DNA of 64,000 bases from Escherichia phage YJin-2024a. Each line of letters starts with the position of its first letter. Positions within the stretch are counted from its first letter, which is position 1. The notes below the pieces were generated by a model. It was not told the origin of the DNA. It made no database searches and worked only from the letters and a program-made list of their open reading frames with translations. The DNA is taken from the sequence record PP534475.1, one strand, 5' to 3'. A program made the position numbers and the translations under genes. Shown one piece after another: positions 2,157 to 43,138 of this stretch.

Positions 2157-2729
2157 TTAACAAGAAAACATATAGTCATAAACTATTTGTTTTATTTCTG
2201 GTAGGTATTTCTCCAGACATGTTTCTGTATACCCATCAGGAAGTAAGGCGGGGGTAAGAAATCCTGAAGGGATGGCCTTTTTCACTAAACTTTCTAATAT
2301 AAATGCCTCTTTCCTGGAGTATAGTTGCACAGATAAGATTAGTTCATGAGAATAGGGGGAATGTCGGGATTGTTCTTTAATTCTAGTGTCAACAGTCCGA
2401 GAGGTGATCCCATACTTTAGAACTGAATAATAGTTATTAGACAACTTTTGAACGTAGAAAATAGTGGGGTTATCCTCTTCGAGTGCTACTTTATCGTCCC
2501 TCATATGTAAAAACCGCGTTTGACAACACTTAGGACATCTAGACCCAGTGTTCACAAAATTACGTATACTAGGTGTCCAACGATTACCATCTTTGGTACA
2601 CTCTAGTAATACTTTAGACTCCGAGTTTTTAAACTCACCAACTACCCCCCTGTACACATACCCCTCTTTTTTGCAAATATCTAGAATTTGTTTTTCTCTT
2701 ATTTCATAGGGTATTGCTTTTCCAGCCAT
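2157..2729 (-). CDS. hypothetical protein with Cys4 zinc finger; possible GIY-YIG-like endonuclease
   Basis: C-x4-C ... CPKCC cysteine cluster followed by YYSVLKYGIT...R...E resembling a GIY-YIG core; weak. Confidence 0.3.
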   Translation of the reverse strand: MAGKAIPYEIREKQILDICKKEGYVYRGVVGEFKNSESKVLLECTKDGNRWTPSIRNFVNTGSRCPKCCQTRFLHMRDDKVALEEDNPTIFYVQKLSNNYYSVLKYGITSRTVDTRIKEQSRHSPYSHELILSVQLYSRKEAFILESLVKKAIPSGFLTPALLPDGYTETCLEKYLPEIKQIVYDYMFSC

Positions 2730-2818
2730 TCGGTAATCTCCATATAAGTATATAGTACAGATATAGTACTATATCTGTACTATATATCCCCTCTAATGAG
2801 GGGATATAGGAACTACTA

Positions 2819-4195
2819 TTAAGATGCAGCGTAAGCACCAGATACAACGCCATTACTAAAGTAACGTTGCAGGTTAACACGCTGAGTAACGTAGTACGCG
2901 TCACGCTGTTTACCAGCTTGGCGCTCACGTTCAACAGTAACAGCACGCTGACGCGGCATTACGAAGTTATCTTTATAAACAATAACTGCGAACTCTGCAG
3001 AGTTAGCTTTAGCCGGGAAGAACTCAGAAACTACAACCGGCAGACCGTAAATACGACCAACCTGACCTTGCAGTTTAACAGCATCATTACCAACCTGGGC
3101 AACATCCTGCCATTCTTCATCTTCCAGCAGATCGTAATAAGCATCCATAGATACGATCAGTACCAGTTTGCTCAGTTTCAGACCATGACGACCCAGTTTA
3201 CGACGCAGTTTAGAGATAGTTTTAGCAGTTACTAGAACAGAACCATCAGCTTTAGCTTCAGTAATAACTTTAGCACTATCGCCTTCAGCCAGTTTCAGCA
3301 GACCCTTAGGCTTACCAGTACCGTCACCAGTCATGAAAGCTTCTTCGATAGAAACAGCGTGTGCTTCAATCAGACGCTTACGAAGCAGCGGCAGTAAGGA
3401 GAAGATTGCATCTTCTTCAGTTTCATCAGTAATGAAGGACTTAGCAGCCAGTTTGTAAGTACTGAAGTGAATTTCTTTAAGAGCACCTTTAACTTCACTA
3501 CCAGTGGTTTCATCAGTACCATAGGTAGAAGCAGCAACCCAAGTAGCTTTACCAGCATCTGGTTCAACCAGCATAGTAAGAATTTTGCTGGACATTGGCA
3601 GTTCTTCAAACAGAGCACCAACTACTAGTTCTTTTTGCAGGTCACGAATAATACGCTGGGAGAAAATAGTTTCATAATTTTCACTAGAAACTTCTACTGA
3701 AGAGGACTGGTTTACAGCTTTCAGGTGTCTCTGGCCATGTTCGGTATCAAATACACCTTTTTCCATCACGTAGGACAGAAGAACCAGTTTCTCCACTTCG
3801 TCTTCAAAGTTTTCTTGAGTACCATACAGTGCTTTAGCTACGCTATCACCGACGAAGGAACGACCTTCACGAGCTGCTAGCAGAGATTTAATTTCATCCT
3901 GAAGACCAACAATAGTTTCCTGCTGTTTTTCTACAGTCTGTGCAAACAGTTCCGCGCTCTTTTTAGATTTTTCATCCAGGGATTTAACCAGTTCCAGAGC
4001 TTCTTCTAGCTTCTGACGATCTTCGCCAACTGCTTTAGAAACCAGATCATTCATACGAGCCAGTTCTTTTTCTTCCTGCTCTTTACGCATACGTTCAGCT
4101 TCCGCAGCTTTCTGAGCAGCAGTCAGACCTTCCAGAGATTTAGCCAGATCACCCAGACCAAGTTCTTCCTTCAGCTTATTAATATCAATAGTCAT
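2819..4195 (-). CDS. major capsid protein with N-terminal scaffolding (delta) domain
   Basis: 458 aa; N-terminal ~150 aa charged coiled-coil region; directly downstream of prohead protease and portal. Confidence 0.85.
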   Translation of the reverse strand: MTIDINKLKEELGLGDLAKSLEGLTAAQKAAEAERMRKEQEEKELARMNDLVSKAVGEDRQKLEEALELVKSLDEKSKKSAELFAQTVEKQQETIVGLQDEIKSLLAAREGRSFVGDSVAKALYGTQENFEDEVEKLVLLSYVMEKGVFDTEHGQRHLKAVNQSSSVEVSSENYETIFSQRIIRDLQKELVVGALFEELPMSSKILTMLVEPDAGKATWVAASTYGTDETTGSEVKGALKEIHFSTYKLAAKSFITDETEEDAIFSLLPLLRKRLIEAHAVSIEEAFMTGDGTGKPKGLLKLAEGDSAKVITEAKADGSVLVTAKTISKLRRKLGRHGLKLSKLVLIVSMDAYYDLLEDEEWQDVAQVGNDAVKLQGQVGRIYGLPVVVSEFFPAKANSAEFAVIVYKDNFVMPRQRAVTVERERQAGKQRDAYYVTQRVNLQRYFSNGVVSGAYAAS

Positions 4196-8892: not shown

Positions 8893-10680
8893 TTAGGTAA
8901 GGCGTTGAACTGTTACTCTTAATCTTGGTAGGAAAATAGCTGCAGCCTCATCTGCATGAATAATTACGCCCAATTCAGCATTACCATTTCCTAGATTTTT
9001 AATAGTATAAATATATCCGTTTCTTCTAAATGTTAACTCATCAGGTCTACTTGCCCAAGTTTGAGTATAACTATATGCAGTAGTGGAGTGATAAGGGACT
9101 AAGTATCCAGGAGGTAAGGTTAATATTTGATGGAATATTCCATCACCTTCCGTGTAACTATGCTGTCTTCTTCCTTGTACTTGCCAAGCAGCACCACCGT
9201 ATGTGCGTATGGCTCCTCCAGCCGTATTAATATTACCCATAATAACTTCCGTAGTTAATATTACCGTTGCGTTAGCGTTAGGCAATCCTAATCCTATGGT
9301 GGCCAAAGCTCTATAGTAGTTGCCTGCTCCAGGATACGCGGGGGTTATATCATCACCAACGTAGGTGCTAGCAACATTATTAGGAAATAGTCTTAAAGGT
9401 ACAGTACTAGGACTCCACACAGCTCCATGCTCATTACCGATAGTGTTATTACTTGAGTTTACGTACCATTGCTTACCTGCTCCGAATTTGTAAATACTGA
9501 TTTGAGACTTGGCTCCTCCATAATCTACAGGAGACCATAAAGATCCATTACTAGATCCTACAATTTCACATCTTGCAGTGGTATCCCCGAAGGCTCCAGT
9601 GTACGCTGCGTTATTTCCAATGTACTCCATATCTGGCCTATAGCCTAAGTTACCAAAAGCATTTTGGTTGATAAACTTATATCCAGTATTTGGTAAACTA
9701 ACCCCTTTTATAGTAAAATTAGATGGAGTTATAAGTATATCTGACCCAGTAAATGGATTACCAGATACACCCATATTACCATTAGAGTACCTTAGATTAA
9801 GTACATACCAAATAACCTTAGTAGGAGTTATGTTATACCAATCCTGCACATACACTTTCTTAGCGGCCTGTGCTGCTAGATTAGATGTTGAACCTTTACA
9901 TATATAAACCTTATCAGGATACGTAGGAGATTGGTATAATAAGTTAACATTAGCTGGTACTGTGCCCTTTTTACCTACGTAACCTCGTATATTAGAGTTA
10001 CAAACATAGAACCAATTATGCCCCCTATGGGCGGCCCCTATAGGAGCTTGCCAATTAGGATGCCAGTAGTCAGCATTACCACCGTCTATAGGTACTGTAG
10101 ATGCTCCTGCTGGAAATCCTGCTAAAGTCCATGCCCTACCTATAGCCTCACCAGCATATGCTCCTCCCGGCCTATATAAATTAAACCCGGAGGCTTGAGA
10201 TATGGTACCACCTGTACCCTGCCTAGCAATTGATTCTTCATGGCCTAAACCAGAGTTATAAATATAGGTGCCATGTGCTAAACTATTACCTGATGCAAAA
10301 GCTGACGTAAGACCTACTTCTGCACCTGCCCTACCAATAGGCGGATCTTCAAAAAATGCAGTAAATTGACCAACTTGAGACTGAGTACCATTAAGAAAAG
10401 CCCTATGAGTACCATTAATCTCAATAGCAGTTAGTATAACTCTACCTGGGTCATTGGATTTAATATTTATTATGTCAGAGGGCATCTGACATACAAAAAA
10501 CCCATTTCCAGCATTTCCTAATCCAGCCTCATAAGTGCCATCAACTAGGACAAATGGCATATCACTATGAAAAATACTATTGGCATTTGGACTATAATGA
10601 CGATTAATGTCACCACCAGATTCAGTATTTAAAGATAGTACGGTCTTACCATCGCTATATTTTCCAGCGAAAAAACCCAT
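8893..10680 (-). CDS. receptor-binding tail protein (pb5/Oad-like) or tail fibre
   Basis: 595 aa, Gly/Asn/Tyr-rich; last late gene before the repeat region; divergent lipoprotein gene next to it, as recalled for T5 oad-llp. Confidence 0.5.
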
Positions 10681-10705
10681 ATAATCTCCTATTATAAAAA
10701 TGTAT

Positions 10706-10734
10706 TTGCTTTCATCCCTCTATTTTGCTATAAT
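10706..10734 (+). promoter_or_regulatory. sigma70 promoter, near-identical to T5 PN25 (TTGCTT-17-TATAAT)
   Basis: aaaaatgtatTTGCTTtcatccctctattttgcTATAATagattcataaatt matches the PN25 core as I recall it. Confidence 0.75.
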
Positions 10735-10765
10735 AGATTCATAAATTAGAAATGGAGAGATAAAT

Positions 10766-11032
10766 ATGAAAAAGTTTGTGATTGCACTAGTTGCCGCAGT
10801 TATGTTATCTGGTTGTGCACCCGCTCCCAAACCATTTTGTACTGGATTTGTAAAATCTTTTGGTGGTGCGGGAGAAGAACATTACGGTCTCAAGATTCAA
10901 AAAGTTCGTATTAAGGGAGATCGCTTCCCAGTAGTACAGCTCCGTACTAAGTTTGGGTGGTGGGATCTCAGTCAGTTTGACCTTAAATATGGTGATTGTA
11001 AATTTAAACTAGAGCAATCTAACTACCTGTAA
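10766..11032 (+). CDS. lipoprotein, candidate Llp-like receptor-blocking (lytic conversion) protein
   Basis: Signal peptide with lipobox MLSGC; 88 aa; divergent from the receptor-binding protein gene. Confidence 0.55.
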   Translation: MKKFVIALVAAVMLSGCAPAPKPFCTGFVKSFGGAGEEHYGLKIQKVRIKGDRFPVVQLRTKFGWWDLSQFDLKYGDCKFKLEQSNYL

Positions 11033-11145
11033 TTAGTATAAAGCAAAAAGACATCCAAGTAAACTAAATTTTTTATTTCTTGAATGGTATATTGGCAGAA
11101 ACCACTATGTAAGAAAAGTAGAAGTCCTTCTAGGAAGTCACAAGC

Positions 11146-11328
11146 ATGGTTGGTTATGCACATATTTTAAAATATCATATTTATTGGAGCATGAAAGATA
11201 TGTCAAACAAAAGAAAGAATAGACGCGGAGAAGTGTATGATAGCTGGATAAATAGTTTTGGGTTCGGAACTATCTTATTCTTTATTTTCGTAGGTTTTTG
11301 GTTAGCAGCTATGGCGGGGTGGATTTAA
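11146..11328 (+). CDS. small membrane protein
   Basis: 60 aa; C-terminal hydrophobic helix; first of four overlapping small ORFs. Confidence 0.4.
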   Translation: MVGYAHILKYHIYWSMKDMSNKRKNRRGEVYDSWINSFGFGTILFFIFVGFWLAAMAGWI

Positions 11329-11435
11329 TGGAATGGGTAATTATTACACTACTGGGGATTGTGATTATTGGGCAGTGTATTTTAGATAATCATCTAGCTA
11401 GAATTGAAACCTTACTATCGGAGAAACGTAAATGA
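11328..11435 (+). CDS. small membrane peptide (35 aa)
   Basis: TAATG overlap with the upstream ORF; single TM helix; not in the ORF track (too short). Confidence 0.3.
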   Translation: MEWVIITLLGIVIIGQCILDNHLARIETLLSEKRK

Positions 11436-11626
11436 TGGAAGTGGCAGTTACACTAATAGTAATATTAGTCTGGGTAATCCTCATTGTCTCTCGTATCGTG
11501 TATCTCCGCCTAAAAACTCTAGAAGCTCAGGTGAAACAACAACAAGTTACTATAGAAAAGCTAGTACTACTGCAACGTTGTGATAGCACCCGTATTCTGC
11601 AAATTGAGAGGGAATTAGATGTTTAG
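11432..11626 (+). CDS. small membrane protein with coiled-coil tail
   Basis: ATGA overlap with the upstream ORF; N-terminal TM helix. Confidence 0.4.
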   Translation: MMEVAVTLIVILVWVILIVSRIVYLRLKTLEAQVKQQQVTIEKLVLLQRCDSTRILQIERELDV

Positions 11627-11864
11627 TATTGTAATTGCTTTTATTATCGGGATACTCGCGGGAGTTTTCGGGACGACTGCGGCAATCAACAAGCATCGGG
11701 AATATATTGTGGGAGTGACGCGAGAGATTGCGGAAAGGGAGCGGAAGTTTGACGAGAAACGTGCGGAGTTTGAGCGGGAGTGGTCGGATGGATCTCGGGC
11801 GTCGCGGAAGAGATTCCGTGAGTTCAGACCAGAACACAGGTTTGATGACCCTTCTATGCGCTAA
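11619..11864 (+). CDS. small membrane-anchored protein, Arg/Glu-rich tail
   Basis: 81 aa; N-terminal TM helix; overlaps the upstream ORF. Confidence 0.4.
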   Translation: MFSIVIAFIIGILAGVFGTTAAINKHREYIVGVTREIAERERKFDEKRAEFEREWSDGSRASRKRFREFRPEHRFDDPSMR

Positions 11865-12015
11865 TTTGACTTTTGCCAAATTTCATAAGATTACACATGG
11901 AGGTGTGCCCAGTGGCCTCCCGGATGAGAATGCGTCTCATTACCGCCCGGTACTTAGCAGACTAATAGTCACGGCATGTTATCATTGCACACCGTGACTA
12001 TTTCAATTTTAATTA

Positions 12016-12750
12016 TTATGCGACTTTTAGTTTCTCAATATATTGTTGCGGGCTGCAACTATATTCCGCGCGTTCTTCCTCGGTCATACTTTCCCAGCAT
12101 AACTTCAATCGATCGGCTAGAAATTGATAATCATTATCATCGTCGAGAGATTCATCAATAAAGGTTCCGCCTATCAATGCCACGCCGATGGATAGAATAT
12201 CATTAACGGCTTGCGCATCTAGCGTTTTAAATCCGTATGACGCCGCCGCTGATAATACACCTTTATGATCATCAATCATTGTAAAATCAGCGTTCGGATA
12301 TAGTTGCTTGAATAGCTCAAAGTAATGGCTTTTATATATATCGTCCTTGCTGTGGTATATCTCGCTAACCTTATCAGCCGTAAAATATTTGTGAAGTGTA
12401 TCGCGGGAAAACACGCGGATATTAGTATCCCCACGCCCGCGCAATCCTTGTTTGCGTAGGAAGTAATAATCTGACTTGCTCATCAGTCGAGCGGTACAAA
12501 TAATGTTTAAAGTGTTTGCGTCATTCATGCACTGGCGCATATATTCCACCAATGGCAATAAGGTATCTTGCATAATTAAATCATGCTTGCAAGCCTCATT
12601 TTTATACTTATTTAAATCTAAATTACCCTCGCTATCAAAGCAAGGTGCTACACGATGGAACGAATTAATGATTGTGCCATCAAGATCCCAGATCATGACA
12701 CGGGAAATATGCGGGAAATTACGGGTAATATTCGTTTTAACTTGATTCAT
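12016..12750 (-). CDS. dmp: 5'-deoxyribonucleotidase (HAD superfamily), Dmp-like
   Basis: HAD motif I WDLDGTI; start placed at the internal Met with GGAGA RBS (244 aa). Confidence 0.7.
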   Translation of the reverse strand: MNQVKTNITRNFPHISRVMIWDLDGTIINSFHRVAPCFDSEGNLDLNKYKNEACKHDLIMQDTLLPLVEYMRQCMNDANTLNIICTARLMSKSDYYFLRKQGLRGRGDTNIRVFSRDTLHKYFTADKVSEIYHSKDDIYKSHYFELFKQLYPNADFTMIDDHKGVLSAAASYGFKTLDAQAVNDILSIGVALIGGTFIDESLDDDNDYQFLADRLKLCWESMTEEERAEYSCSPQQYIEKLKVA

Positions 12751-13288: not shown

Positions 13289-14959
13289 TTATGCGAAAAA
13301 TTTGCCGTTTTTAAAGTCAATCAAAGTGCGCTGACCGTTCGCATAGGTAATTAAATGCGTTTGCGTCCAGCTTGACGCGCCAACGTTGTAACCCATATCG
13401 AGGGAACCAGCAACGCCCGCGGTATATACACCGCCGTAAATGCTTGCCGTATGCGTATGCCCCGTGTTTAACTTGCCCAATTTTTTAAATTGCTTCGGAT
13501 TGCCACGGCTGCCGTTAATGCCGTTGTGACCGTGTACGCCGCATTCAATGCCTGCAATTTTAAATGATTGGTCAGTCGTTAGGAAAATTGCGTTAAACTC
13601 GCAACCTGCAACCGTACGCAGCGCATAATCTAGCACGTTGAAAGTATCGTCATGATTACCGATTGCCGCGTAAATCGCAGCATTAAGGCGGTGATACAGT
13701 TCCGCGTTGGCTGGATCGTCTTTAATGTTAGCATTGCGATCATCAAGCCAACGAGAAAGCGCCAAATCGTGGTTTGATTCCACAATGATTGTTTGACTAA
13801 AATCACGTTCCATTGATTCCAGCACGCGCCCGGTGTCGATCAGATCATCAATAACCTTATCACGTCCGGCTGCATACTGTTTCGCTAGAAATACACCAGA
13901 CGCGCGGTTGTGATGGTTGCGTGATGTAAAATCATGCACGTCATGGACGAATTGATATTTTGGTTTGAGAATATCCACTAGCCCATAAGTATCACCGTGA
14001 CCCCATGACGCAGCGGCGCACTCCTCGTCTAATTTTTCGGCGTGAATATCGCCATATTGCAAGCCTAAAACATGCCCCGTTGTTTCAAAGCATCCGGTGG
14101 GAGTAGCGCAAACGTTCAGATCGTAAAACATGCCGCTTTCGTCCATTGTTTCAAGCTGGCGCACAAAAAACTCACCGTCTTCGTCGAACTCAACAATCAG
14201 CGCACCGTAATTATGCAATGCTTCCGCTTTTTGCCCTGCTTTCTGCTGAATGTAGTTTTTAAGCGTTGCCGTTCCGGTTGAATACATGCGGCGTACTACT
14301 TCACCTTTGAGAGCTGGGACGCTTTCGGCGGTGATTTTAGCGTGACCAATTGCCAGACCTTCAAGATTAAGCGCCGTTGCAGTTTCTGCAAATCCAGATA
14401 GCGGGTAATCTGCGGTGGGCAAAACATTAATTTCAGCCATGAAAGCGAAACGGCGGTTATTTAAAAACACGTTTTTGCTGCAAATATATTTATCAAATGC
14501 GGAATCATATTTTACACCGTCTGCGCCTTCACCATTTTGAAAGCCGTTTTTGTTATAAATATACTTAGAAACAAGCAAATCAGCGCCGATAAATTGGGCA
14601 TATTGTTCAAGCGAGGCTAAAAAGTTTTTATGAGGGAAAGTATTATTCTGAATCGATGTAATAATAAAGCGTTTGCCTTGTTTTACTTCCCACTGTTCAA
14701 CCGTGCTGGAAATAATTCCAGCCGCTTCGGGGCGCTCGTCGTTTTTAATGGCTTTTACAGCTTTCGCCGCTTTTGGTTTCGCTGGTTTATTTGCTTCTAA
14801 CCAATCGCAAATTGCGGTCGAGTGCTTCGTTGTGTCATATACCGCTTTAGAAATATCGTCACAAACTTCCAGCTTGGTGGCGCGCAGACGTTTACCGTAG
14901 AAATTAAAGTCAGCGGCCAGTTTCAGGATAACGGTTTGTTTTTCTGCGGAAAAAATCAT
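13289..14959 (-). CDS. A1: A1-like pre-early protein, calcineurin-like metallophosphoesterase
   Basis: GDIHA, GHGDTYG, SNHD and GHTH phosphoesterase motifs; 556 aa from the internal Met, the length I recall for T5 A1. Confidence 0.75.
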   Translation of the reverse strand: MIFSAEKQTVILKLAADFNFYGKRLRATKLEVCDDISKAVYDTTKHSTAICDWLEANKPAKPKAAKAVKAIKNDERPEAAGIISSTVEQWEVKQGKRFIITSIQNNTFPHKNFLASLEQYAQFIGADLLVSKYIYNKNGFQNGEGADGVKYDSAFDKYICSKNVFLNNRRFAFMAEINVLPTADYPLSGFAETATALNLEGLAIGHAKITAESVPALKGEVVRRMYSTGTATLKNYIQQKAGQKAEALHNYGALIVEFDEDGEFFVRQLETMDESGMFYDLNVCATPTGCFETTGHVLGLQYGDIHAEKLDEECAAASWGHGDTYGLVDILKPKYQFVHDVHDFTSRNHHNRASGVFLAKQYAAGRDKVIDDLIDTGRVLESMERDFSQTIIVESNHDLALSRWLDDRNANIKDDPANAELYHRLNAAIYAAIGNHDDTFNVLDYALRTVAGCEFNAIFLTTDQSFKIAGIECGVHGHNGINGSRGNPKQFKKLGKLNTGHTHTASIYGGVYTAGVAGSLDMGYNVGASSWTQTHLITYANGQRTLIDFKNGKFFA

Positions 14960-15048
14960 AATAATAAACTCCATTAAAGGGACTAGGTTAATAATGGCAA
15001 TGTTGCCAAATATAACGCCTTGAATAATAGGCGTTATAATTTGCAACA

Positions 15049-15246
15049 TTAATTTAAAGGCATCAGGCTAGAACTAACACCACAAACAATGGCAGCAATA
15101 AAACAAATCAGACCTAAACGCTTTGCCAATATTGATTTACGTTTAAAATAATACGAATCTAAATCATTTTGAAAATATGCGAACAATAATGAAGCCGCCA
15201 TAATAAATAAGCCTAGAATGAGCGATTCAGTGGGGTAAAAGATCAT
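15049..15246 (-). CDS. small membrane protein
   Basis: Hydrophobic 65 aa; start placed at the ATG preceded by the conserved pre-early leader (the ORF track begins at an upstream GTG). Confidence 0.4.
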   Translation of the reverse strand: MIFYPTESLILGLFIMAASLLFAYFQNDLDSYYFKRKSILAKRLGLICFIAAIVCGVSSSLMPLN

Positions 15247-19322: not shown

Positions 19323-19365
19323 TAATCACGGGGCGCAACTATCCGGAAGTGCCCCCAATTTTCAA

Positions 19366-19384
19366 ATGATAATCATTCTCATTT
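19366..19384. promoter_or_regulatory. palindromic site AATGATAATCATTCTCATT (full-site version of the half-site repeat downstream)
   Basis: Near-perfect dyad built from the AATGAGAAT half-site. Confidence 0.5.
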
Positions 19385-19574
19385 GACCGCGCCCGCGATG
19401 GTTAGCCTGCTAATGGTTAGGGTGTTACGTGTCGCCTTGTGTGATCGTTAGCGGGCTAACTAATTTTCAAGCCTCCTCCAATTTTGCCCTTGTTTTAGTA
19501 CCTCCAACAAAATTAAACGCGTTAGAATGCGTTTGAGGGCGTTTTAACGCTATATTAGAACTATTCACTGCGTA

Positions 19575-19710
19575 GGAATACTGTATATTTATACAGTAGG
19601 ATAAGCTGTGGATAAGTCTGTTGATAACGCCTCAAAATGGCTAGGATTTTGTCAAGTCAAATCGTGCTGTTGATAAGTCTGTGAATAACTTAAATAACAG
19701 TGTTTCTCAC
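19575..19710. repeat. inverted repeat arm B with DnaA-box motifs
   Basis: Reverse complement aligns with 17281..17410 over about 130 bp; TGTGGATAA at about 19607. Confidence 0.75.
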
Positions 19711-19719
19711 TTCCATTCT

Positions 19720-19937
19720 TAAATGAGAATCATTATCGTTCGCATTCCGCTTTTTAAATGAGAATCGTTTCACTTCTTAAATGAGAATCATTCCGCTTTT
19801 TAAATGCGAATCATTATCATTTGCATTCCACTTCTTAAATGAGAATCATTCCGCTTTTTAAATGAGATTGATTCTCGTTTCACTTTCTAAATGCGAATTA
19901 TTATCATTCTCATTCCGCTTTTTAAATGAGAATGATT
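19720..19937 (+). repeat. array of 8 direct repeats TAAATG(A/C)GAAT(C/G)ATT
   Basis: Copies at about 19720, 19755, 19778, 19801, 19836, 19859, 19888, 19923. Confidence 0.8.
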
Positions 19938-19983
19938 CTTATTATCATTCGTATTTAGCGCAGGGCAATTGCCCTGCGCTTTT

Positions 19984-20583
19984 GTGCAAATCCGACATTG
20001 CTCCACGGGTGTTACGTGCGGGTGTATGTGCAAATCCGACAGGATTTTTGGTAGTGTGCAAATCCGACCCGAAAAATTTTTATAGTGTGCAAATCCGACA
20101 ATGAATTTTCCCAAAAACTCCAGCAATCTCGAACTGCGTTCGAATCCTGTGGGGTATGTGCAAATCCGACATGGTTTTTCTAGGATTAAGATGTGCGAAT
20201 CCGACAAGATTTTTATGACTTCGATTGGAGGGTGTGTGATTATGTGAGTTTGGGGAGAAGATGAGAGAGTGAGAGAAACTTGGGGGAACTGTGGGAGAGG
20301 CGCATGTTTGGTGCGGAGCACCCGATTTGCGGGGATTTTGGGGAAGAGTTGAGAAGATTTGGGTTAATTTGAGATTAGTGGAGATAAAGTAAAATTTTAT
20401 TAGCAAAATGGGGCAAAATAGCTTGACAAGTGAAAATTTCTGTGGCTCTAAAAACTCAGGTAAACATGGGCCTTCGGCCCGAAATAATGCTGCTATTTTC
20501 ATGAGATTATATGTTCCTAAAAACTTAGGCAATTGTGCAAATCCGACCATAAATTTCTAGAAACACAATGTGCAAATCCGACA
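19984..20583 (+). repeat. array of 8 direct repeats GTGCAAATCCGAC(A/C)
   Basis: Copies at about 19984, 20028, 20056, 20087, 20158, 20193, 20535, 20570, each followed by a short T-rich tract. Confidence 0.8.
20226..20400 (+). repeat. purine-rich block with several G4-5 tracts, almost no C on the plus strand
   Basis: gggagaag, tgggggaac, gcggggatt, ttggggaag within about 170 nt. Confidence 0.6.
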
Positions 20584-21118
20584 ATAAAATCCAGAAATGT
20601 GTTTTCAAAAAATGTCTCCTAGAAATAACCGCCCTCCCCATAACCGCCCTGTATTAAACCGCCTAGTATATGTTCCTAGAAACTTAGGAGAACCGCCCAC
20701 TAGAAGTATGATATCTCGTGAGAACTCTGGAGTTTCTAGGAAAGTGTTGTGCCATCCTAGCAGATGAGTGGCAACCGGTGTATCATCTTGAATGTAAATT
20801 ATGTGGACAAAAGTTTTACCTTTTATTTAAATAAAAGATCCCCAGGGTTCTCATATAGAGCTTTGCCCCCGCCAGAAGGTCTCGTGGTGTTTCTAGCAAT
20901 TTATATTAAATTACTTATTAACTTGTCCTGTCGCTCCGTATCCTCCGCTACAAGTTAGTAATTTTAAATTACTGAACCACCACACCTTCTGTGTGGCAAC
21001 TCTAAATGGTTAATTCTATTAACTCATAGAGTTATGATAACATACATTTAGCTATCTGTCAACGAGAGTTTGTATTTGAGTCTCGGTACAGGTATTGTGC
21101 ACCGAGACATGCAGGATC

Positions 21119-38269: not shown

Positions 38270-38345
38270 TGGTAGTTAGTAGTGGATTTGAACCACTGTA
38301 GTCGCTCCGTATGAAGGAGGTGCATAACCACTCTGCCAACTAACT
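38270..38345 (-). tRNA. tRNA with CAU anticodon (Met or Ile2)
   Basis: T-arm, 7-bp acceptor pairing, CCA encoded; anticodon loop UUCAUAC. Confidence 0.7.
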
Positions 38346-38441
38346 GTTATGTTTTACTAGACTAAGTAAGTATTCTTTATACTCTTTAGACCAACTAGCT
38401 TTTTTAAACTTTCCTGGACGCATAGTCTTAATTCCTAAATT

Positions 38442-38518
38442 TGGTACTCCGGGAGGGATTTAAACCCCCGATCTCTCGGTTATCAGCCGAGTGCTTTAGA
38501 TCGCTAAGCTACCGAAGC
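38442..38518 (-). tRNA. tRNA-Ile (GAU)
   Basis: Acceptor and T-arm pairing, CCA encoded; loop CUGAUAA. Confidence 0.7.
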
Positions 38519-38519
38519 A

Positions 38520-38726
38520 TTAATATTTAATTGCAGAACGTTTACCATTTCTAGGCGCACCTGGAAGTCGTGCACGTTCTGCCATTCTTCGCTTAATCTT
38601 TGAGATATTTTCTAGTGTTTGTTCTTCAGGCTTAATACCTGAAACACTACACCACTGATTACCATCCCATGCGATAATGATCATAACACCATTACCCATA
38701 ATCTTTTCTGTGAAAGTAATTCTCAT
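38520..38726 (-). CDS. hypothetical protein
   Basis: ORF between tRNA genes; start at internal Met. Confidence 0.35.
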   Translation of the reverse strand: MRITFTEKIMGNGVMIIIAWDGNQWCSVSGIKPEEQTLENISKIKRRMAERARLPGAPRNGKRSAIKY

Positions 38727-39019
38727 TATAGCAACTCGTCTAAGCAAGAGGTATATTTAAGTTTACCATCTTTATCTACTTTGATTTCGACTTCCGCTCG
38801 TGGTACTTGACGAACTACACCATGAATCATCTTATAGCGAATGCCTTTAGCTGGTTCACGATCTTTTGGAAATACTTGCTTAACCGTTACTACCTTGAAA
38901 CCCTCACGCGGTGTTAACACTACTACTTGATCACCTTCTTTGATCTTCCAAGAGCTAGGAAATTCATAGGTATAGCGTTGACCACCAGTTTGGAACACAA
39001 CAGAAAGATAACGTTTCAT
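38726..39019 (-). CDS. hypothetical protein (97 aa)
   Basis: ORF with PN25-like promoter upstream. Confidence 0.5.
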   Translation of the reverse strand: MKRYLSVVFQTGGQRYTYEFPSSWKIKEGDQVVVLTPREGFKVVTVKQVFPKDREPAKGIRYKMIHGVVRQVPRAEVEIKVDKDGKLKYTSCLDELL

Positions 39020-39049
39020 TTGGTTTCCCTCTCATTAATTTATATAAAT

Positions 39050-39078
39050 ATTATAACAAGAAATAAGAGAGAAGGCAA
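39050..39078 (-). promoter_or_regulatory. early sigma70 promoter, PN25-like family
   Basis: TTGCCT-17-TATAAT on the minus strand. Confidence 0.5.
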
Positions 39079-39086
39079 ATGAATTT

Positions 39087-39254
39087 TTAATAAAGTTTAG
39101 TCACTTCATAAACTATACTACGAGATTCTTTATTACGTTGTATTAAATTAGCGTATGCTTCTTCAGCTTCATTTTTAGTATTAAAGTCTATAACGTGAGA
39201 GGTATTAGCTCTATTTGATTGGCTATACCAGATAACTACTAGGAGTTTAAACAT
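39087..39254 (-). CDS. hypothetical protein
   Basis: Start moved to the internal Met with AAGGAT RBS to avoid the adjacent tRNA. Confidence 0.35.
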   Translation of the reverse strand: MFKLLVVIWYSQSNRANTSHVIDFNTKNEAEEAYANLIQRNKESRSIVYEVTKLY

Positions 39255-39268
39255 ACTAATCCTTAAAT

Positions 39269-39355
39269 TGGTGCTGGGCACAGGATTCGAACCTGCAACG
39301 GGATTACTCCTCCTGATTACAAATCAGGTGCATTCAACCATTCTGCCAACCCAGC
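39269..39355 (-). tRNA. type II tRNA (long variable arm), anticodon loop UUUGUAA, isotype uncertain
   Basis: 87 nt; 3-bp D stem and 15-nt variable arm; anticodon reads UGU, which is atypical for a type II body. Confidence 0.5.
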
Positions 39356-39520
39356 AGAACCCGTTATTTCAACGGGATTTCTTTTTCAATAACAAGAGAC
39401 TTGTCAGTCATAACTGTCATTGCCATTTGTTGTAGAAATTCAAAGGTGAAGGCTACACGTTCTTCACCAATCTCTACTTCTACACGTTTCTTTTGTTTAT
39501 CGATCTTGACTTTTAGGTTA

Positions 39521-39742
39521 TCAGCCATCTTCGGGTTCTCGTTGCTGCGCTACTTCTAGCCAGTCTGGTAGAAGAAACTTTGTACGAAATTCTTCGTAAG
39601 TTTCTTTGGGATAAAAGCTAAAACCTCCTTTCTCGTCATTCAGGATAACAGAGCCGTCAGTTTGTTCGTATGCTCGGTATGTTTCTCCAATAACAATAAC
39701 TCGTTTATCGGTACTTTTATTACGAAATTCAAAAACGTGCAT
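39521..39742 (-). CDS. hypothetical protein (73 aa)
   Basis: ORF only. Confidence 0.45.
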   Translation of the reverse strand: MHVFEFRNKSTDKRVIVIGETYRAYEQTDGSVILNDEKGGFSFYPKETYEEFRTKFLLPDWLEVAQQREPEDG

Positions 39743-39758
39743 AACGTTTCCTTAAAGT

Positions 39759-39834
39759 TGGAGCGGCTAGAGGGAATCGAACCCTACTCAGCGAGGCTTG
39801 GAAGGCCTGCGACACAACCCGTGTGCTTAACCGC
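39759..39834 (-). tRNA. tRNA-Gly (UCC)
   Basis: Acceptor and T-arm pairing; loop CUUCCAA. Confidence 0.7.
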
Positions 39835-39842
39835 TTATTGTT

Positions 39843-39919
39843 TGGCTGGAGAAGGAGGAATCGAACCTACCATTAACGGAGTCAAAGGCCGTTGTGCTAA
39901 CCGTTACACTACTCTCCAA
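39843..39919 (-). tRNA. tRNA-Gln (UUG)
   Basis: Acceptor and T-arm pairing; loop CUUUGAC. Confidence 0.7.
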
Positions 39920-39924
39920 TTATT

Positions 39925-40000
39925 TGGCTGGAGTGCCTGGGATCGAACCAGGAACCTTCGGAGTCAGAGGCCGACGATCTGCCAATTGATCTACACTCCA
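39925..40000 (-). tRNA. tRNA-Gln (CUG)
   Basis: Perfect acceptor pairing; loop CUCUGAC. Confidence 0.7.
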
Positions 40001-40008
40001 ATAATCCT

Positions 40009-40209
40009 TTACTCTACAGGAACCGTGGCTATTGGTTCTGGTTCTTCTAGACGTTTGCCTTCATGATCTACACGAATAACACCACAACCTTCACAGATTA
40101 CAACAGCACCGTAGCCTTCTTTAACTTCGGCTTCTGTAATCAAACCAGAAAGATCACCAGTATCTTTACCCCACATATCAATGGAGCATTGTTTGCAGAA
40201 ATCAGCCAT
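40009..40209 (-). CDS. zinc-ribbon protein (66 aa)
   Basis: CKQC ... CEGCG cysteine pairs. Confidence 0.45.
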   Translation of the reverse strand: MADFCKQCSIDMWGKDTGDLSGLITEAEVKEGYGAVVICEGCGVIRVDHEGKRLEEPEPIATVPVE

Positions 40210-40234
40210 ATTTTATTTCCTATTTAAGTTAATT

Positions 40235-40311
40235 TGGGGTGGCTAGTGGAATTCGAATCCACATAGGCCTGATTCACAATCAGGATCATTAACCAATTAT
40301 GATATAGCCAC
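40235..40311 (-). tRNA. tRNA-His (GUG)
   Basis: Perfect acceptor and T stems; loop UUGUGAA. Confidence 0.7.
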
Positions 40312-40680
40312 AATTGAAAACTCGCAGGGTTAGCGAAACCTTCCTCAATTAGCATGTTCTAGAATACTAATCAAGTTATCTCCTATTGCACGCAGCTCAA
40401 GACGAGTACGAGTTTTCAATTGTGGCGGCTCTCCGAAACTCTTCTACTCTAGCCTTAGCAGCTTACTCCCGAACGCATGTCGGGAAAGTCTTACTAAGAG
40501 CATCAAATAGCTCCGTTACACTTTGAGCCATAGATGTATCAAGAAGCAGAAGGACTTGAACCTTCACGAGATAGACCATTTATCTCAGCCGCTTTATGAG
40601 GTATGTTGTAGAGAGTGGATGTTCTCTATAAACCTTTTAGGCAGCCCCGTCTACCAATTCCGGCATACTTCAAGAATTTC

Positions 40681-40863
40681 TTATAAACCAGCAGAAGCCT
40701 CATTTAAAGCATCAACAATAGCCTGTTGTTGCGTCCATCCTCTACCAGTAGAATTAACATGTGGAAGATATACTTCCCAATAACCGTCCTCTAGTAAGGT
40801 TATTTGTGCACTAAACTCTGTGCCATCAGTTAGTGTAACCTTCACAGTTTTTGTTAAAGACAT
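40681..40863 (-). CDS. hypothetical protein (60 aa)
   Basis: ORF only. Confidence 0.4.
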   Translation of the reverse strand: MSLTKTVKVTLTDGTEFSAQITLLEDGYWEVYLPHVNSTGRGWTQQQAIVDALNEASAGL

Positions 40864-40879
40864 ATATTATCCTATAAGT

Positions 40880-40969
40880 TGGCAGAAGATAATGGAGTCG
40901 AACCATCACCGTATCGCTACAGCGGGCTGGTTTTCAAGACCAGTTACGTACCACTACGTCCTATCTTCT
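40880..40969 (-). tRNA. tRNA-Ser (UGA), type II
   Basis: 90 nt; perfect acceptor pairing; loop CUUGAAA. Confidence 0.7.
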
Positions 40970-40975
40970 ATTGTT

Positions 40976-41066
40976 TGGCGGAAGAGGAGAGATTTGAACT
41001 CTCAAGCCGTTTTACCAGTCAGCCACTTTCCAAGCGGTTTTCGTCGCCAATTCGATTTGCTCTTCC
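40976..41066 (-). tRNA. tRNA-Ser (GGA), type II
   Basis: 91 nt; perfect acceptor and T stems; loop UUGGAAA. Confidence 0.6.
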
Positions 41067-41178
41067 AATAATAAGATGATGCCTCTATCACACCAGGCAG
41101 TTACGCCTCGCTGGGATTCGAACCCATTAAAACAGCTCAACCGAGATAGTAGGTTTAATTTACTCTGACCATCAAATT

Positions 41179-41255
41179 TGGTGCGTGACAAGGGATTCGA
41201 ACCCTCAAAACCCGACTTCTAAGGACGGTATGTATGCCAATTCCATCAATCACGC
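41179..41255 (-). tRNA. tRNA, anticodon UAG (Leu-like) with short variable arm
   Basis: Acceptor and T-arm pairing; GAATTGG D-loop; loop CUUAGAA. Confidence 0.55.
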
Positions 41256-41260
41256 ATGTT

Positions 41261-41339
41261 TGGTGGAGAATAACGGAATCGAACCGTTCTGATGTCCTCG
41301 GTGCAAGCGAGGTGTCCACTCCATGCAGACCCATTCCCC
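41261..41339 (-). tRNA. tRNA-Ala (UGC)
   Basis: Acceptor and T-arm pairing; loop CUUGCAC. Confidence 0.65.
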
Positions 41340-41671
41340 AAATTCTTTAGTTTACTAAGGCTATTAGCTCGGCGTAACTACAGCACCTTCGCTTCAAGCG
41401 GAAGGAACCGCGTCATCTCGCAAACCCGATACACTATTCAGTTGCCACTGAATCTAGTGGACTAATCTAGAACTTCTCCCGAATCGTAGGGATCGTGCTT
41501 TTTGGCAGCCAGTCCTAGGTCGAGCTAATACCTTAGTGAACTAAATTGATGGATACCAGACTAATTTTGCTACGACGTTTATCCTGGGGATCTCTTTTTC
41601 GGTAGCTCTGCTAGTGTAGACGTCATACACCTGGTATCTAGGCAGCTATTTTCGCATCAATTTATATAAAT

Positions 41672-41700
41672 ATAATAACAAGAAATTAAGCATCAAGCAA
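41672..41700 (-). promoter_or_regulatory. early sigma70 promoter feeding a tRNA operon through a ~330 nt non-coding leader
   Basis: TTGCTT-17-TATTAT on the minus strand; no ORF downstream before the tRNAs. Confidence 0.45.
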
Positions 41701-41718
41701 CTACGTTTTTCTTGAAAT

Positions 41719-41797
41719 TGGTAGATCGCCTGGGACTCGAACCCAGAACCTTCCGATTAAAAGTCGGATGCTACTAAACCTATTGAGCTAGCGATCT
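41719..41797 (-). tRNA. tRNA-Lys (UUU)
   Basis: Perfect acceptor, T and anticodon stems; loop CUUUUAA. Confidence 0.7.
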
Positions 41798-41986
41798 ATT
41801 AGTAACCATTGTATACTTCTTTAATAGAGTGAACTTTCAGGTAATGGTGATTAGTACTAAACTCTACCATTACTTCATCCCAATTTTTACCATAATGGGC
41901 AAGTAAGGATTTTGATGTATTCTTACCTAACCGTTTGTCACTTACTACTAATCGAAATACTTTCATTTCGAAATCCTCTATTAAAA

Positions 41987-42064
41987 TGGAAGCGGGTGCA
42001 GGAATCGAACCTACCTCTTTCTAGCTTATGAGACTAGCGATCTCTACCAGAGATCTAACCCGCA
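41987..42064 (-). tRNA. tRNA with CAU anticodon (second copy; Met/fMet/Ile2)
   Basis: Loop CUCAUAA; 1-72 position unpaired, as in initiator-type tRNAs. Confidence 0.6.
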
Positions 42065-42070
42065 ATTGTT

Positions 42071-42148
42071 TGGTCTCCGTGAGAGGATTTGAACCCCCGA
42101 CCCTATCGCCCCAAACGAAACGCTCTGGCCAAACTGAGCTACACGGAG
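42071..42148 (-). tRNA. tRNA-Pro (UGG)
   Basis: Perfect acceptor pairing; loop UUUGGGG. Confidence 0.65.
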
Positions 42149-42150
42149 AA

Positions 42151-42310: not shown

Positions 42311-42343
42311 TTTTGCTTTCCTTCTCTTCACTTTATAAAATAT

Positions 42344-43112: not shown

Positions 43113-43138
43113 AGCATATTTCTCGTGCTAGTTTAATT

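What the first reader, a model, noticed from the sequence alone, without database searches (positions are those of the whole stretch)
11146..11864. Four translationally coupled plus-strand genes for tiny membrane proteins
Four ORFs of 60, 35, 64 and 81 aa overlap by TAATG, ATGA or 8 nt. Each has one hydrophobic helix, and the last two carry charged coiled-coil tails. They sit after the lipoprotein gene at the start of the pre-early block, opposite in orientation to dmp, A1 and A2. The function is unknown; candidates are superinfection exclusion, membrane depolarisation or control of DNA transfer.
Basis: seen in the sequence. Interest (0 to 1): 0.5.

Follow-up and report, generated by a model that had tools for sequence, protein, structure and literature searches.

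The report
T5 llp-operon tiny membrane genes
These are the already-annotated, function-unknown small membrane-protein genes T5.159–T5.162 of T5-like phages: real, conserved and dispensable in the laboratory.

Summary
The window is a T5-like phage (Tequintavirus) assembled with one copy of the terminal repeat. The four overlapping plus-strand ORFs are real genes, orthologues of T5.159–T5.162. T5's record already notes each as having a "single transmembrane domain", and each has its own PHROG family.

- The first gene is 42 aa (start 11200), not 60 aa.
- The cassette lies about 42 nt outside the terminal repeat, so it is not pre-early.

Supporting evidence:
- In the relative Bas33, these transcripts vanish when second-step DNA transfer is blocked, while pre-early dmp is unaffected.
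- The genes follow llp behind a promoter nearly identical to T5's early PN25 promoter. No conserved promoter or terminator lies between llp and the cassette, and a conserved hairpin follows it.
- The cassette is found in about as many coli/Salmonella T5-like records (443) as carry a close dmp (about 441). It is under purifying selection and does not depend on receptor type.
- It has no homologue outside the clade.
- It scored "Not Fit" in a T5 CRISPRi-ART screen.
- T5 has its own holin, endolysin and spanins elsewhere.

Function is unproven. My best guess, at low confidence, is an accessory inner-membrane complex that complements Llp in exclusion or envelope protection after DNA entry. Novelty is low: already known, uncharacterised genes.

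The parts
10706..10746 (+). llp promoter of the T5 early type: −35 TTGCTT (10706–10711), 17-nt spacer with TG, −10 TATAAT (10729–10734), then AGATTCATAAAT.
   Evidence: It occurs once in the window. It is conserved in T5, DT57C, Bas33, chee24, SP3 and BD13. It is near-identical to T5 promoter PN25, whose sequence I confirmed at T5 63048–63117 with the annotation 'promoter'.
10766..11032 (+). llp: Cor/Llp-type receptor-blocking lipoprotein (88 aa, lipobox LSGC), of the BtuB-phage (BF23/DT57C) type.
   Evidence: It matches PHROG 1119 'Cor superinfection exclusion protein' at E = 1.7e-26 and the Pfam lipoprotein attachment site. It is 98% identical to DT57C llp.
11200..11328 (+). ORF1, orthologue of T5.159 (42 aa). 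It has a basic N-terminus (MSNKRKNRRGE) and a C-terminal aromatic-rich transmembrane helix. Predicted topology is N-in.
   Evidence: It matches PHROG 8596 at E = 1e-31 over residues 19–60 of the 60-aa ORF. The start at 11200 is conserved while the ATG at 11146 is not. pN/pS is 0.15. A transmembrane segment is predicted.
11328..11435 (+). ORF2, orthologue of T5.160 (35 aa). It has an N-terminal transmembrane helix and a short amphipathic tail ending in KRK. Predicted topology is N-out/C-in.
   Evidence: It matches PHROG 6369 at E = 7e-26. pN/pS is 0.17. Bas33 carries a 51-aa paralogue next to it.
11432..11626 (+). ORF3, orthologue of T5.161 (64 aa). It has an N-terminal transmembrane helix and a heptad-like tail with an invariant C-terminal RI.Q.ERELDV motif.
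   Evidence: It matches PHROG 5851 at E = 4e-31. Its length is 64 aa in all ten phages compared, including the 42%-identical BD13 form. pN/pS is 0.52, the lowest of the six frames. Hydrophobic residues fill 8 of 11 a/d heptad positions.
11619..11864 (+). ORF4, orthologue of T5.162 (81 aa). A transmembrane helix continues into a long Glu/Arg/Lys-rich helix, followed by a variable disordered tail.
   Evidence: It matches PHROG 6447 'membrane protein' at E = 1.4e-46. AlphaFold2 predicts a helix over residues 2–69. tblastn finds it in 443 phage records. A profile search of 1.84 billion representative proteins found only 5 representatives, all of the family itself. pN/pS is 0.41.
11878..11907 (+). 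Conserved 30-nt block (AAATTTCATAAGATTACACATGGAGGTGTG) ending at the position that aligns with T5's left genome terminus. The terminal repeat starts at about 11906.
   Evidence: This comes from an alignment with T5 position 1 and with T5's right-repeat junction. The block occurs only once in the window. The repeat annotations of T5, chee24, Kenya-K16, DT57C and Shivani all start downstream of the fourth gene.
11964..12013 (+). Stem-loop (AUAGUCACGGC…CCGUGACUAU) followed by a U-rich stretch. It is the probable intrinsic terminator of the llp operon and lies inside the first ~100 nt of the terminal repeat, just before the 3' end of dmp (12016–12750, minus strand).
   Evidence: The fold of 11865–12015 gives −39.9 kcal/mol, z = −2.7. 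T5 and DT57C have a different stem sequence at the same place that still pairs, GTTTCACCCTGCAA…TTGCAGGGTGAAAC. The simple consensus scan did not call it a terminator.

Best explanation
**Shown**
- The four genes are the orthologues of T5.159, T5.160, T5.161 and T5.162.
- They encode 42-, 35-, 64- and 81-aa single-pass membrane proteins.
- They lie at the extreme right of the unique genome, between llp and the right terminal repeat. They reach the cell only with second-step transfer and are not pre-early.

**Inferred with fair confidence**
- They are the distal genes of one early operon. A PN25-type early promoter comes first, then llp, ORF1–4, and a hairpin terminator just inside the repeat.
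- They are translated in a coupled way, as the 1-, 4- and 8-nt overlaps suggest. This would deliver roughly matched amounts of four small proteins that assemble in the inner membrane.
- By the positive-inside rule, ORF1 has a basic cytoplasmic N-terminus. ORF2–4 have the N-terminus out and helical tails in the cytoplasm.

**Inferred with low confidence (the functional guess)**
- The complex is an accessory, receptor-independent partner of Llp in 'lytic conversion'. Llp plugs the outer-membrane receptor. The small proteins would act at the inner membrane to close or protect the DNA-entry route against further T5-like DNA, once the phage's own genome is fully inside.
- Being the last unique genes to enter fits a function that must not act before entry is complete.

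My confidence is about 0.9 for the identity and genomic context and about 0.3 for the functional part. The single figure given covers the whole statement.
For: **Identity**
- All four genes match PHROG families at E = 1e-26 to 1e-47.

**Real genes**
- Order, lengths and overlaps are conserved in ten phages.
- The annotated frame has the lowest pN/pS of the six frames in every gene.
- ORF4 is found in 443 phage records, against about 441 records with dmp at 80% identity or more.

**Outside the repeat and not pre-early**
- T5's terminus aligns to about 11906 in the window.
- Repeat annotations in five relatives start downstream of the fourth gene.
- In Bas33 RNA-seq at 20 min, llp gives 219/127 TPM, the ORF2 paralogue 162/137, ORF3 462/408 and ORF4 22/13.
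- All of these drop to 0–1 reads with daunorubicin, which arrests infection after first-step transfer. dmp changes by log2FC +0.67 (PMC13250531).

**Operon**
- The llp promoter is near-identical to T5 PN25.
- Between llp and ORF1, only the last ~45 nt are conserved across Llp types, and no conserved promoter or predicted terminator lies there.
- A hairpin maintained by different, still-pairing stem sequences follows ORF4.

**Membrane proteins**
- Each has a transmembrane segment, and flanking charges support the stated topology.
- ORF4 is modelled as one long helix.

**Accessory role**
- T5.159–162 are all 'Not Fit' in the CRISPRi-ART screen (PMC11879866 source data).

**Receptor-independent**
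- The cassette is constant whether the RBP–Llp module is T5's own FhuA type (no detectable similarity to the window's Llp), the BF23/DT57C BtuB type, or Shivani's non-matching gene.

**Link to exclusion**
- The cassette shares an operon with the only characterised superinfection-exclusion gene of these phages. Llp function is taken from PMC9586334 and PMC10644984.
Against: **No direct functional data**
- There is no functional experiment on these proteins.
- No sequence or profile similarity exists to any known exclusion protein or anything else. Pfam, NCBIfam and PADLOC gave nothing significant. The three large-database searches and the exhaustive profile search found only the family itself.

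**Weak points in the argument**
- Sharing an operon with llp is weak evidence for shared function.
- Klebsiella phage FZ41 has architecturally similar genes at this position without a recognisable llp.
- The predicted cytoplasmic location of the tails is not obviously suited to blocking an entry channel.
- T5 has about ten other small transmembrane ORFs in its early region, so such genes are common and need not relate to exclusion.

**Limits of the expression and fitness data**
- The Bas33 counts are erratic: about 1 TPM for the 108- and 129-bp genes, and an unexplained tenfold drop for ORF4.
- The CRISPRi-ART T5 screen also scored several virion genes 'Not Fit', so its negatives are weak.
- Translation of the four proteins has not been shown in any data I could read.
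Confidence: 0.35

Rival explanations
1. The genes are lysis-timing regulators. The small membrane proteins would modulate the T5 holin as antiholin-like or RI/RIII-like factors, or otherwise tune when the membrane is permeabilised.
For: - T5's lysis system resembles T4's. Its holin has a single transmembrane domain (T5.041, a 657-nt gene, about 218 aa), and its spanins are annotated as similar to T4 PseT.2.
- From my own knowledge, T4 regulates such a holin with small proteins (RI, membrane-tethered; RIII, cytoplasmic).
- No such regulators are annotated in T5.
- ORF2–4 are membrane-anchored helices with predicted cytoplasmic tails that could bind a holin's cytoplasmic end.
- They are dispensable in the laboratory, as T4 rI and rIII are.
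Against: - The cassette is about 100 kb from the lysis genes on the physical genome. It is not next to the holin or endolysin.
- It shows no similarity to any holin or antiholin family.
- From my own knowledge, lysis inhibition is not a described property of T5.
Confidence: 0.15
2. The genes act in host takeover or anti-defence at the membrane. The proteins would bind and inhibit a host inner-membrane protein such as a transporter, a divisome component or a membrane-bound abortive-infection or defence sensor. The benefit would appear only in natural hosts.
For: - They are expressed after DNA entry and are dispensable on laboratory E. coli K-12, yet near-universal and under purifying selection. 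This is the pattern expected for conditionally useful accessory genes.
- PHROG 6447 (ORF4) is filed under 'moron, auxiliary metabolic gene and host takeover'.
- The architecture of a transmembrane helix plus a coiled coil resembles small bitopic divisome proteins. The only hit, to FtsL, is far below threshold (E = 0.11).
Against: - No homology exists to any known anti-defence or takeover protein.
- The PHROG category is not based on an experiment.
- The FtsL and LapA matches are insignificant.
- A pre-early host division inhibitor is already described for these phages (PMC13250531 discussion).
Confidence: 0.2
3. The genes form a spanin-like or other outer-envelope disruption module together with the neighbouring lipoprotein. 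ORF3 or ORF4 would be the inner-membrane component and Llp the outer-membrane one.
For: The layout looks superficially similar: a lipoprotein gene lies next to genes for an N-terminal transmembrane helix plus a coiled coil.
Against: - T5 already has two annotated Rz-like spanin genes (T5.044 and T5.045) close to its holin and endolysin genes (see also PMC4342426).
- Llp has an established, structurally characterised role as a receptor blocker (PMC9586334).
- The 39–58-residue tails are much shorter than Rz-type periplasmic domains (my knowledge: about 130 residues).
- The tails are predicted to be cytoplasmic.
- The cassette stays constant while llp is exchanged for unrelated lipoproteins.
Confidence: 0.03
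4. Some of the ORFs are not translated, and the conservation reflects DNA- or RNA-level constraints next to the packaging or terminal-repeat boundary.
For: - The region abuts the repeat boundary and a conserved 30-nt block.
- The ORF3 selection signal is modest (0.52 against 0.72–1.02 in other frames).
- No peptide evidence was available to me.
- Bas33 counts for two of the genes are about 1 TPM.
Against: - In all four genes the annotated frame has the lowest pN/pS of the six frames.
- Indels are in multiples of three and heptad-sized.
- Start codons, Shine-Dalgarno motifs and stop/start overlaps are conserved.
- BD13's ORF3 is only 42% identical yet keeps its length, its transmembrane helix and its C-terminal motif.
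- ORF2 has a diverged paralogue that keeps the same architecture.
Confidence: 0.05

Closest known systems
T5 genes T5.159–T5.162 (PHROGs 8596, 6369, 5851, 6447)
   Same: They are direct orthologues. They share order, lengths (42/35/64/81 aa), overlaps and position between llp and the right terminal repeat. Protein identity is 77–95%.
   Different: Nothing essential differs. In this window a chance upstream ATG lengthens the first ORF to 60 aa. The neighbouring RBP–Llp module is of the BtuB (BF23/DT57C) type rather than T5's FhuA type.
Llp/Cor receptor-blocking lipoprotein of T5-like phages
   Same: It is on the same strand and apparently in the same early transcription unit. It is an accessory envelope protein made after DNA entry (PMC9586334).
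   Different: Llp is an outer-membrane lipoprotein specific for one receptor and is exchanged together with the RBP. The four small proteins have no lipobox, are predicted to be in the inner membrane, and stay constant across receptor types.
Small inner-membrane superinfection-exclusion proteins (T4 Imm and Sp, HK97 gp15), recalled from my own knowledge
   Same: They are tiny, non-essential phage membrane proteins with one or two transmembrane helices, made early. This is the class the proposed mechanism would resemble.
   Different: There is no sequence or profile similarity. Here there are four translationally linked genes rather than one. The predicted tails are cytoplasmic. No exclusion phenotype has been tested.
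Two-component spanins (λ Rz/Rz1, T4 PseT.3/PseT.2, T5.044/T5.045)
   Same: An N-terminal transmembrane helix plus a coiled-coil protein is encoded beside a lipoprotein gene.
   Different: The tails are much shorter and the predicted topology is opposite. The genes are not in the lysis cassette, and T5 already has spanins.
Unannotated positional analogues in Klebsiella Sugarlandvirus (phage FZ41)
   Same: Two ORFs (74 and 153 aa) with an N-terminal transmembrane helix plus a coiled coil lie between the RBP gene and dmp, transcribed divergently from the RBP.
   Different: BLASTP finds no similarity. There are two genes instead of four, no recognisable llp, and a long Ser-rich tail on the second protein.

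Membership tests
T5.159–T5.162 orthologous groups (PHROGs 8596/6369/5851/6447) | Significant full-length match to each family profile | tested here: met
   E = 1e-31, 7e-26, 4e-31 and 1.4e-46, each covering the whole profile.
T5.159–T5.162 orthologous groups (PHROGs 8596/6369/5851/6447) | Conserved synteny: RBP (minus strand), llp (plus), the four genes (plus), terminal repeat with dmp (minus) | tested here: met
   The layout is the same in T5, DT57C, chee24, Kenya-K16, ABTNLsp9, SP3, SelmaRatti, BD13 and Bas33.
T5 pre-early gene class | Located within the terminal repeat / first-step-transfer DNA | tested here: not met
   The T5 terminus aligns to about 11906 in the window, 42 nt after the ORF4 stop. 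Repeat annotations in five relatives begin after the fourth gene.
T5 pre-early gene class | Expressed when only first-step-transfer DNA is in the cell | tested here: not met
   With daunorubicin, the Bas33 orthologues give 0–1 reads (log2FC −9 to −12; the two shortest genes have almost no reads in either condition), while dmp is at +0.67 (PMC13250531 Dataset S1). This comes from published data on a relative, not on this phage.
T5 early gene class | Driven by an early-type σ70 promoter and transcribed after second-step transfer | tested here: inconclusive
   The llp promoter is near-identical to PN25, and transcripts are present at 20 min in Bas33. No time course or 5'-end mapping was available. 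Early expression of llp itself is taken from Decker et al. 1994, as cited in PMC4342426.
Two-component spanin (i-spanin) | N-in/C-out membrane protein with a long periplasmic coiled-coil domain, paired with an o-spanin lipoprotein gene in the lysis cassette | tested here: not met
   The tails are 39–58 residues, and the charge distribution predicts C-in. The genes are not near the holin or endolysin, and T5.044/045 are the annotated spanins.
Holin / antiholin | Membership of a known holin or antiholin family, or adjacency to the endolysin gene | tested here: not met
   There are no Pfam, NCBIfam or PHROG lysis matches. The T5 holin and endolysin are T5.041 and T5.040, far away. A functional effect on lysis was not testable here.
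Known superinfection-exclusion or defence protein families | Sequence or profile similarity to a described exclusion or defence protein | tested here: not met
   PADLOC gave no hits, and Pfam and NCBIfam gave nothing above threshold. This lowers the claim 'is a member of family X' but not the claim 'works as an exclusion factor'.
Known superinfection-exclusion or defence protein families | Expression reduces infection or DNA entry by a second phage | not testable with these tools
   This requires plating and DNA-entry assays.

The most novel reading that the evidence does not exclude
The four proteins form a dedicated inner-membrane 'door-closing' complex. It is encoded, together with Llp, as the very last unique DNA to enter the cell. 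As a result, the entry route is sealed, and further T5-like DNA excluded regardless of outer-membrane receptor, only after the phage's own two-step injection has finished. Gene position would then serve as a timing device for exclusion.
Probability: 0.12. Interest if true: 0.6.

Novelty: already known. Interest (0 to 1): 0.22.

Why it matters
As a discovery it matters little. The genes have been in the T5 annotation for two decades and recur in hundreds of deposited genomes.

The useful outcome is a corrected picture of where they sit and when they are expressed:
- They are not pre-early.
- They probably belong to the llp early operon.
- They do not depend on receptor type.
- They were scored 'Not Fit' in a laboratory screen.

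This narrows the sensible experiments to exclusion, lysis timing and host-specific fitness.

If they turned out to be the inner-membrane half of T5 'lytic conversion', that would add a second, receptor-independent layer to a textbook exclusion system. It could also matter for designing T5-like therapeutic phage cocktails.

Tried and rejected
- **Remote homology.** Pfam, NCBIfam and PADLOC scans gave nothing significant. The LapA-domain (E = 0.003) and FtsL (E = 0.11) matches are well below their thresholds. Large-database searches with ORF4, ORF3 and ORF1 and an exhaustive profile search with ORF4 returned only close T5-like relatives.
- **Paralogy among the four genes.** hhalign of ORF2 against ORF3 gave 31% probability, and ORF3 against ORF4 gave nothing. 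Only the Bas33 extra gene is a clear ORF2 paralogue.
- **Spanin idea.** Rejected because T5 has annotated spanins elsewhere.
- **Own promoter in the llp–ORF1 spacer.** The candidate motifs I read by eye (TGgTATATT; TTGGTT-17-TATCAT) are not conserved in Bas33 or T5, and the scan found none there.
- **Antisense ORF 11550–11879 (109 aa).** It stays open in all relatives, but its pN/pS is no better than other non-coding frames. It is a composition artefact of the purine-rich ORF4.
- **Rfam scan of 10500–12100.** No RNA family was found.
- **Literature.** Searches for T5.159–162 and T5p155–158 found no paper that discusses these genes. The BF23, T5 two-step-injection and φR2-01 papers do not mention them. 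The DRT4 paper has no supplementary files held as text.
- **Second copy of the terminus-flanking block.** None was found in the window.
- **Lysis genes in the window.** My first guess at their position was wrong. I used the T5 record instead.
Full report
**What the window is**

The region 10700–12000 is 97.7% identical to Salmonella phage ABTNLsp9. It matches 318 T5-like records in total. The layout of the window is as follows:
- late and structural genes, then terminase;
- the receptor-binding protein (8893–10680, minus strand);
- llp (10766–11032, plus strand);
- the four small ORFs;
- dmp (12016–12750, minus strand), A1 (13289–15049, minus strand) and A2;
- the early region, with 23 tRNA genes.

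This is the arrangement expected when a T5-type genome is assembled with its two terminal repeats collapsed into one copy.

**Checking the observation**

Each is preceded by a Shine-Dalgarno-like motif. Each has one segment predicted to insert into a membrane. ORF3 and ORF4 have charged helical tails. AlphaFold2, run with a 23-sequence alignment, models ORF4 as a single helix over residues 2–69 with a disordered end.

One correction is needed. The 60-aa reading of the first ORF depends on an ATG at 11146 that only this window has.
- The closest relative has an in-frame stop 8 codons upstream of the conserved ATG.
- Kenya-K16 has no upstream in-frame start at all.
- The 42-position PHROG profile matches residues 19–60.

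The gene is therefore 11200–11328, 42 aa.

**Are they real genes?**

Yes. The evidence is:
- The same four genes occur with the same order, lengths and overlaps in T5, DT57C, chee24, Kenya-K16, ABTNLsp9, SP3, SelmaRatti, Shivani, BD13 and Bas33.
- tblastn with ORF4 finds 443 phage records. About 441 records carry dmp at 80% identity or more. The cassette therefore appears to be near-universal in the coli/Salmonella T5-like phages.
- Nei-Gojobori counts give pN/pS of 0.15, 0.17, 0.52 and 0.41. In every gene the annotated frame is the lowest of the six.
- Indels in ORF4 are in-frame and often heptad-sized.
- BD13's ORF3 is only 42% identical but keeps its length, its transmembrane helix and the C-terminal ERELDV motif.
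- A 109-aa antisense ORF over ORF4 stays open in all relatives. It shows no coding-type selection and is a by-product of ORF4's purine-rich codons.

**They are already known**

The T5 reference record lists them as T5.159 (42 aa), T5.160 (35 aa), T5.161 (64 aa) and T5.162 (81 aa). Each has its own PHROG family. I found no paper that discusses them. Names such as 'tail assembly protein' or 'tail fiber protein' attached to some homologues have no support and look like propagated mis-annotation.

**Where they sit: not in the pre-early block**

T5's right terminal repeat is annotated from 111532, which is 42 nt after the T5.162 stop. Position 1 of T5 aligns to about 11906 in the window, 42 nt after the ORF4 stop at 11864. 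Four other relatives with annotated repeats also place the boundary downstream of the fourth gene.

Published data on the close relative Bas33 agree. Twenty minutes after infection, llp and the cassette give the following TPM values in the two replicates (PMC13250531 Dataset S1; gene map):

| Gene | TPM (two replicates) |
|---|---|
| llp | 219 / 127 |
| ORF2 paralogue | 162 / 137 |
| ORF3 | 462 / 408 |
| ORF4 | 22 / 13 |

With daunorubicin, which arrests infection after first-step transfer, all of these fall to 0–1 reads. Pre-early dmp changes by log2FC +0.67. The four genes therefore need second-step transfer. They cannot be pre-early, and they cannot control the phage's own first-to-second-step transfer.

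**Transcription unit**

- The promoter in front of llp is TTGCTT, a 17-nt spacer with TG, then TATAAT followed by AGATTCATAAAT (10706–10746). It is conserved in all relatives examined.
- It is almost identical to T5's strong early promoter PN25. I confirmed the PN25 sequence at T5 63048–63117, where it is annotated as a promoter.
- Between llp and ORF1, only the last ~45 nt, which include the ribosome-binding site, are conserved between phages with unrelated Llp proteins. No conserved promoter and no predicted terminator lies there.
- After ORF4, just inside the repeat, a stem-loop with a U-rich tail lies at 11964–12013. It is kept in T5 and DT57C with a different stem sequence that still pairs.

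The simplest reading is one early operon: promoter, llp, ORF1–4, terminator. This is an inference, because no 5'- or 3'-end mapping was available.

The Bas33 counts along the operon are erratic. The 108- and 129-bp genes give about 1 TPM, as do other genes under 130 bp, which suggests a counting artefact. ORF4 is more than tenfold below ORF3, and I cannot explain that.

**What the proteins look like**

- **ORF1** has a strongly basic N-terminus (KRKNRR) and a C-terminal aromatic- and Gly-rich transmembrane helix. This predicts N-in topology.
- **ORF2–4** start directly with the transmembrane helix. They have an acidic or uncharged N-terminal end and Lys/Arg just after the helix. This predicts N-out/C-in topology with cytoplasmic helical tails.
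- **ORF3's tail** is heptad-like.
- **ORF4's tail** is a Glu/Arg/Lys-rich helix followed by a variable end. In many relatives that end has been replaced where an HNH homing endonuclease gene is inserted.
- **Bas33** has a fifth gene, a 51-aa paralogue of ORF2.

None of the proteins has a detectable relative outside this phage clade. Three searches of a 5.8-billion-protein database and an exhaustive profile search of 1.84 billion representative proteins returned only the families themselves. Pfam, NCBIfam and PADLOC gave nothing significant.

Klebsiella phage FZ41 (Sugarlandvirus) has two unannotated ORFs with the same architecture at the same position, without sequence similarity and without a recognisable llp. 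A Proteus relative and a Vibrio relative have nothing comparable there.

**Function**

Nothing is shown directly. The constraints are:
- expression only after full DNA entry;
- probable co-transcription with llp;
- tight translational linkage, which suggests a complex;
- constancy while the RBP–Llp module is swapped between receptor types;
- a 'Not Fit' score for all four genes in the T5 CRISPRi-ART screen (scores −3.6 to −4.1; PMC11879866 source data), although that screen also missed several virion genes;
- the existence of separate T5 holin, endolysin and spanin genes.

The explanation I rank first, at about 0.3, is an accessory inner-membrane complex. It would complement Llp by protecting or closing the entry route in a receptor-independent way. 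Their position as the last unique genes to enter would prevent them from acting on the phage's own DNA.

The rivals are:
- lysis-timing regulators of the single-transmembrane-domain holin (0.15);
- host-takeover or anti-defence factors acting on a host membrane protein (0.2);
- a spanin-like module (0.03);
- non-translated conservation (0.05).

T5's early region contains about ten further small transmembrane ORFs, so this cluster is not exceptional for the phage.

**Verdict**

The genomic and temporal assignment is wrong. The object is an already annotated, uncharacterised gene set. Interest is low to moderate, and its value lies in a sharper set of experiments.

Noticed in passing
window 11878–11907 and about 11906: A 30-nt block (AAATTTCATAAGATTACACATGGAGGTGTG) is conserved in all relatives aligned. 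It ends exactly where T5's left genome terminus aligns, so it may be part of the terminase cutting context. It occurs only once in the window.
   Followed up: partly
window 11964–12013: A stem-loop with a U-rich tail lies inside the first ~100 nt of the terminal repeat. T5 and DT57C have a different stem sequence at the same place that still pairs. It is a likely terminator for plus-strand transcription coming out of the llp operon.
   Followed up: partly
L006 (Shivani) 2706–3203; L007 (SP3) 2700–3197; L009 (SelmaRatti) 2685–3182; L012 (Bas33) 2881–3420: The 3' end of ORF4 is a hot spot for free-standing HNH homing endonuclease genes. In Shivani, SP3 and SelmaRatti the insertion overlaps ORF4 and replaces its last ~14 residues. 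Bas33's HNH lies after an intact 81-aa ORF4. Shivani has a second HNH between its llp-position gene and ORF1.
   Followed up: partly
L012 (Bas33) 3999–4154, minus strand: Bas33 carries a fifth small gene (bas33_0190, 51 aa) between ORF1 and ORF2. It is a longer paralogue of ORF2 with the same MEWVII… transmembrane start and …RIETLLEERK end.
   Followed up: yes
L008 (BD13) 1823–2137; L004 (T5) about 3170–3320: BD13 has an extra 104-aa ORF between llp and ORF1. T5's llp–T5.159 spacer contains sequence that aligns to part of it, which suggests a decayed remnant in T5.
   Followed up: no
L013 (Klebsiella phage FZ41) 5275–5499 and 4811–5272, minus strand: Two unannotated ORFs (74 and 153 aa) lie between the RBP gene and an HNH/dmp. 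Each has an N-terminal transmembrane helix plus a coiled coil, and the second has a Ser-rich tail. They are positional analogues of ORF3 and ORF4 with no sequence similarity.
   Followed up: partly
window 19350–20600: A dense array of direct and inverted repeats lies in a largely non-coding stretch near the inner end of the terminal repeat. Examples are AAATGAGAATCATT-type units and at least five copies of TGTGCAAATCCGAC. This corresponds in position to T5's annotated injection stop signal region.
   Followed up: no
window 11550–11879, minus strand: A 109-aa antisense ORF over ORF4 stays open in all relatives. Its pN/pS (0.66–1.35 across the minus-strand frames) is no better than other non-coding frames, so it is an artefact of ORF4's purine-rich codons.
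   Followed up: yes
Bas33 RNA-seq (PMC13250531 Dataset S1), genes bas33_0187–0192: Read counts alternate between hundreds or thousands and about 1 along adjacent genes of the operon. Genes under 130 bp are essentially uncounted. ORF4 (246 bp) is more than tenfold below ORF3, which length does not explain.
   Followed up: partly
database names of ORF3 and ORF4 homologues: Several records and UniRef entries call these tiny membrane proteins 'tail assembly protein' or 'tail fiber protein'. One SP3-family entry is called 'H-N-H endonuclease'. These names are unsupported and look like propagated annotation errors.
   Followed up: partly
window 38270–49918: A cluster of 23 tRNA genes lies on the minus strand, as expected for the T5 early region.
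   Followed up: no
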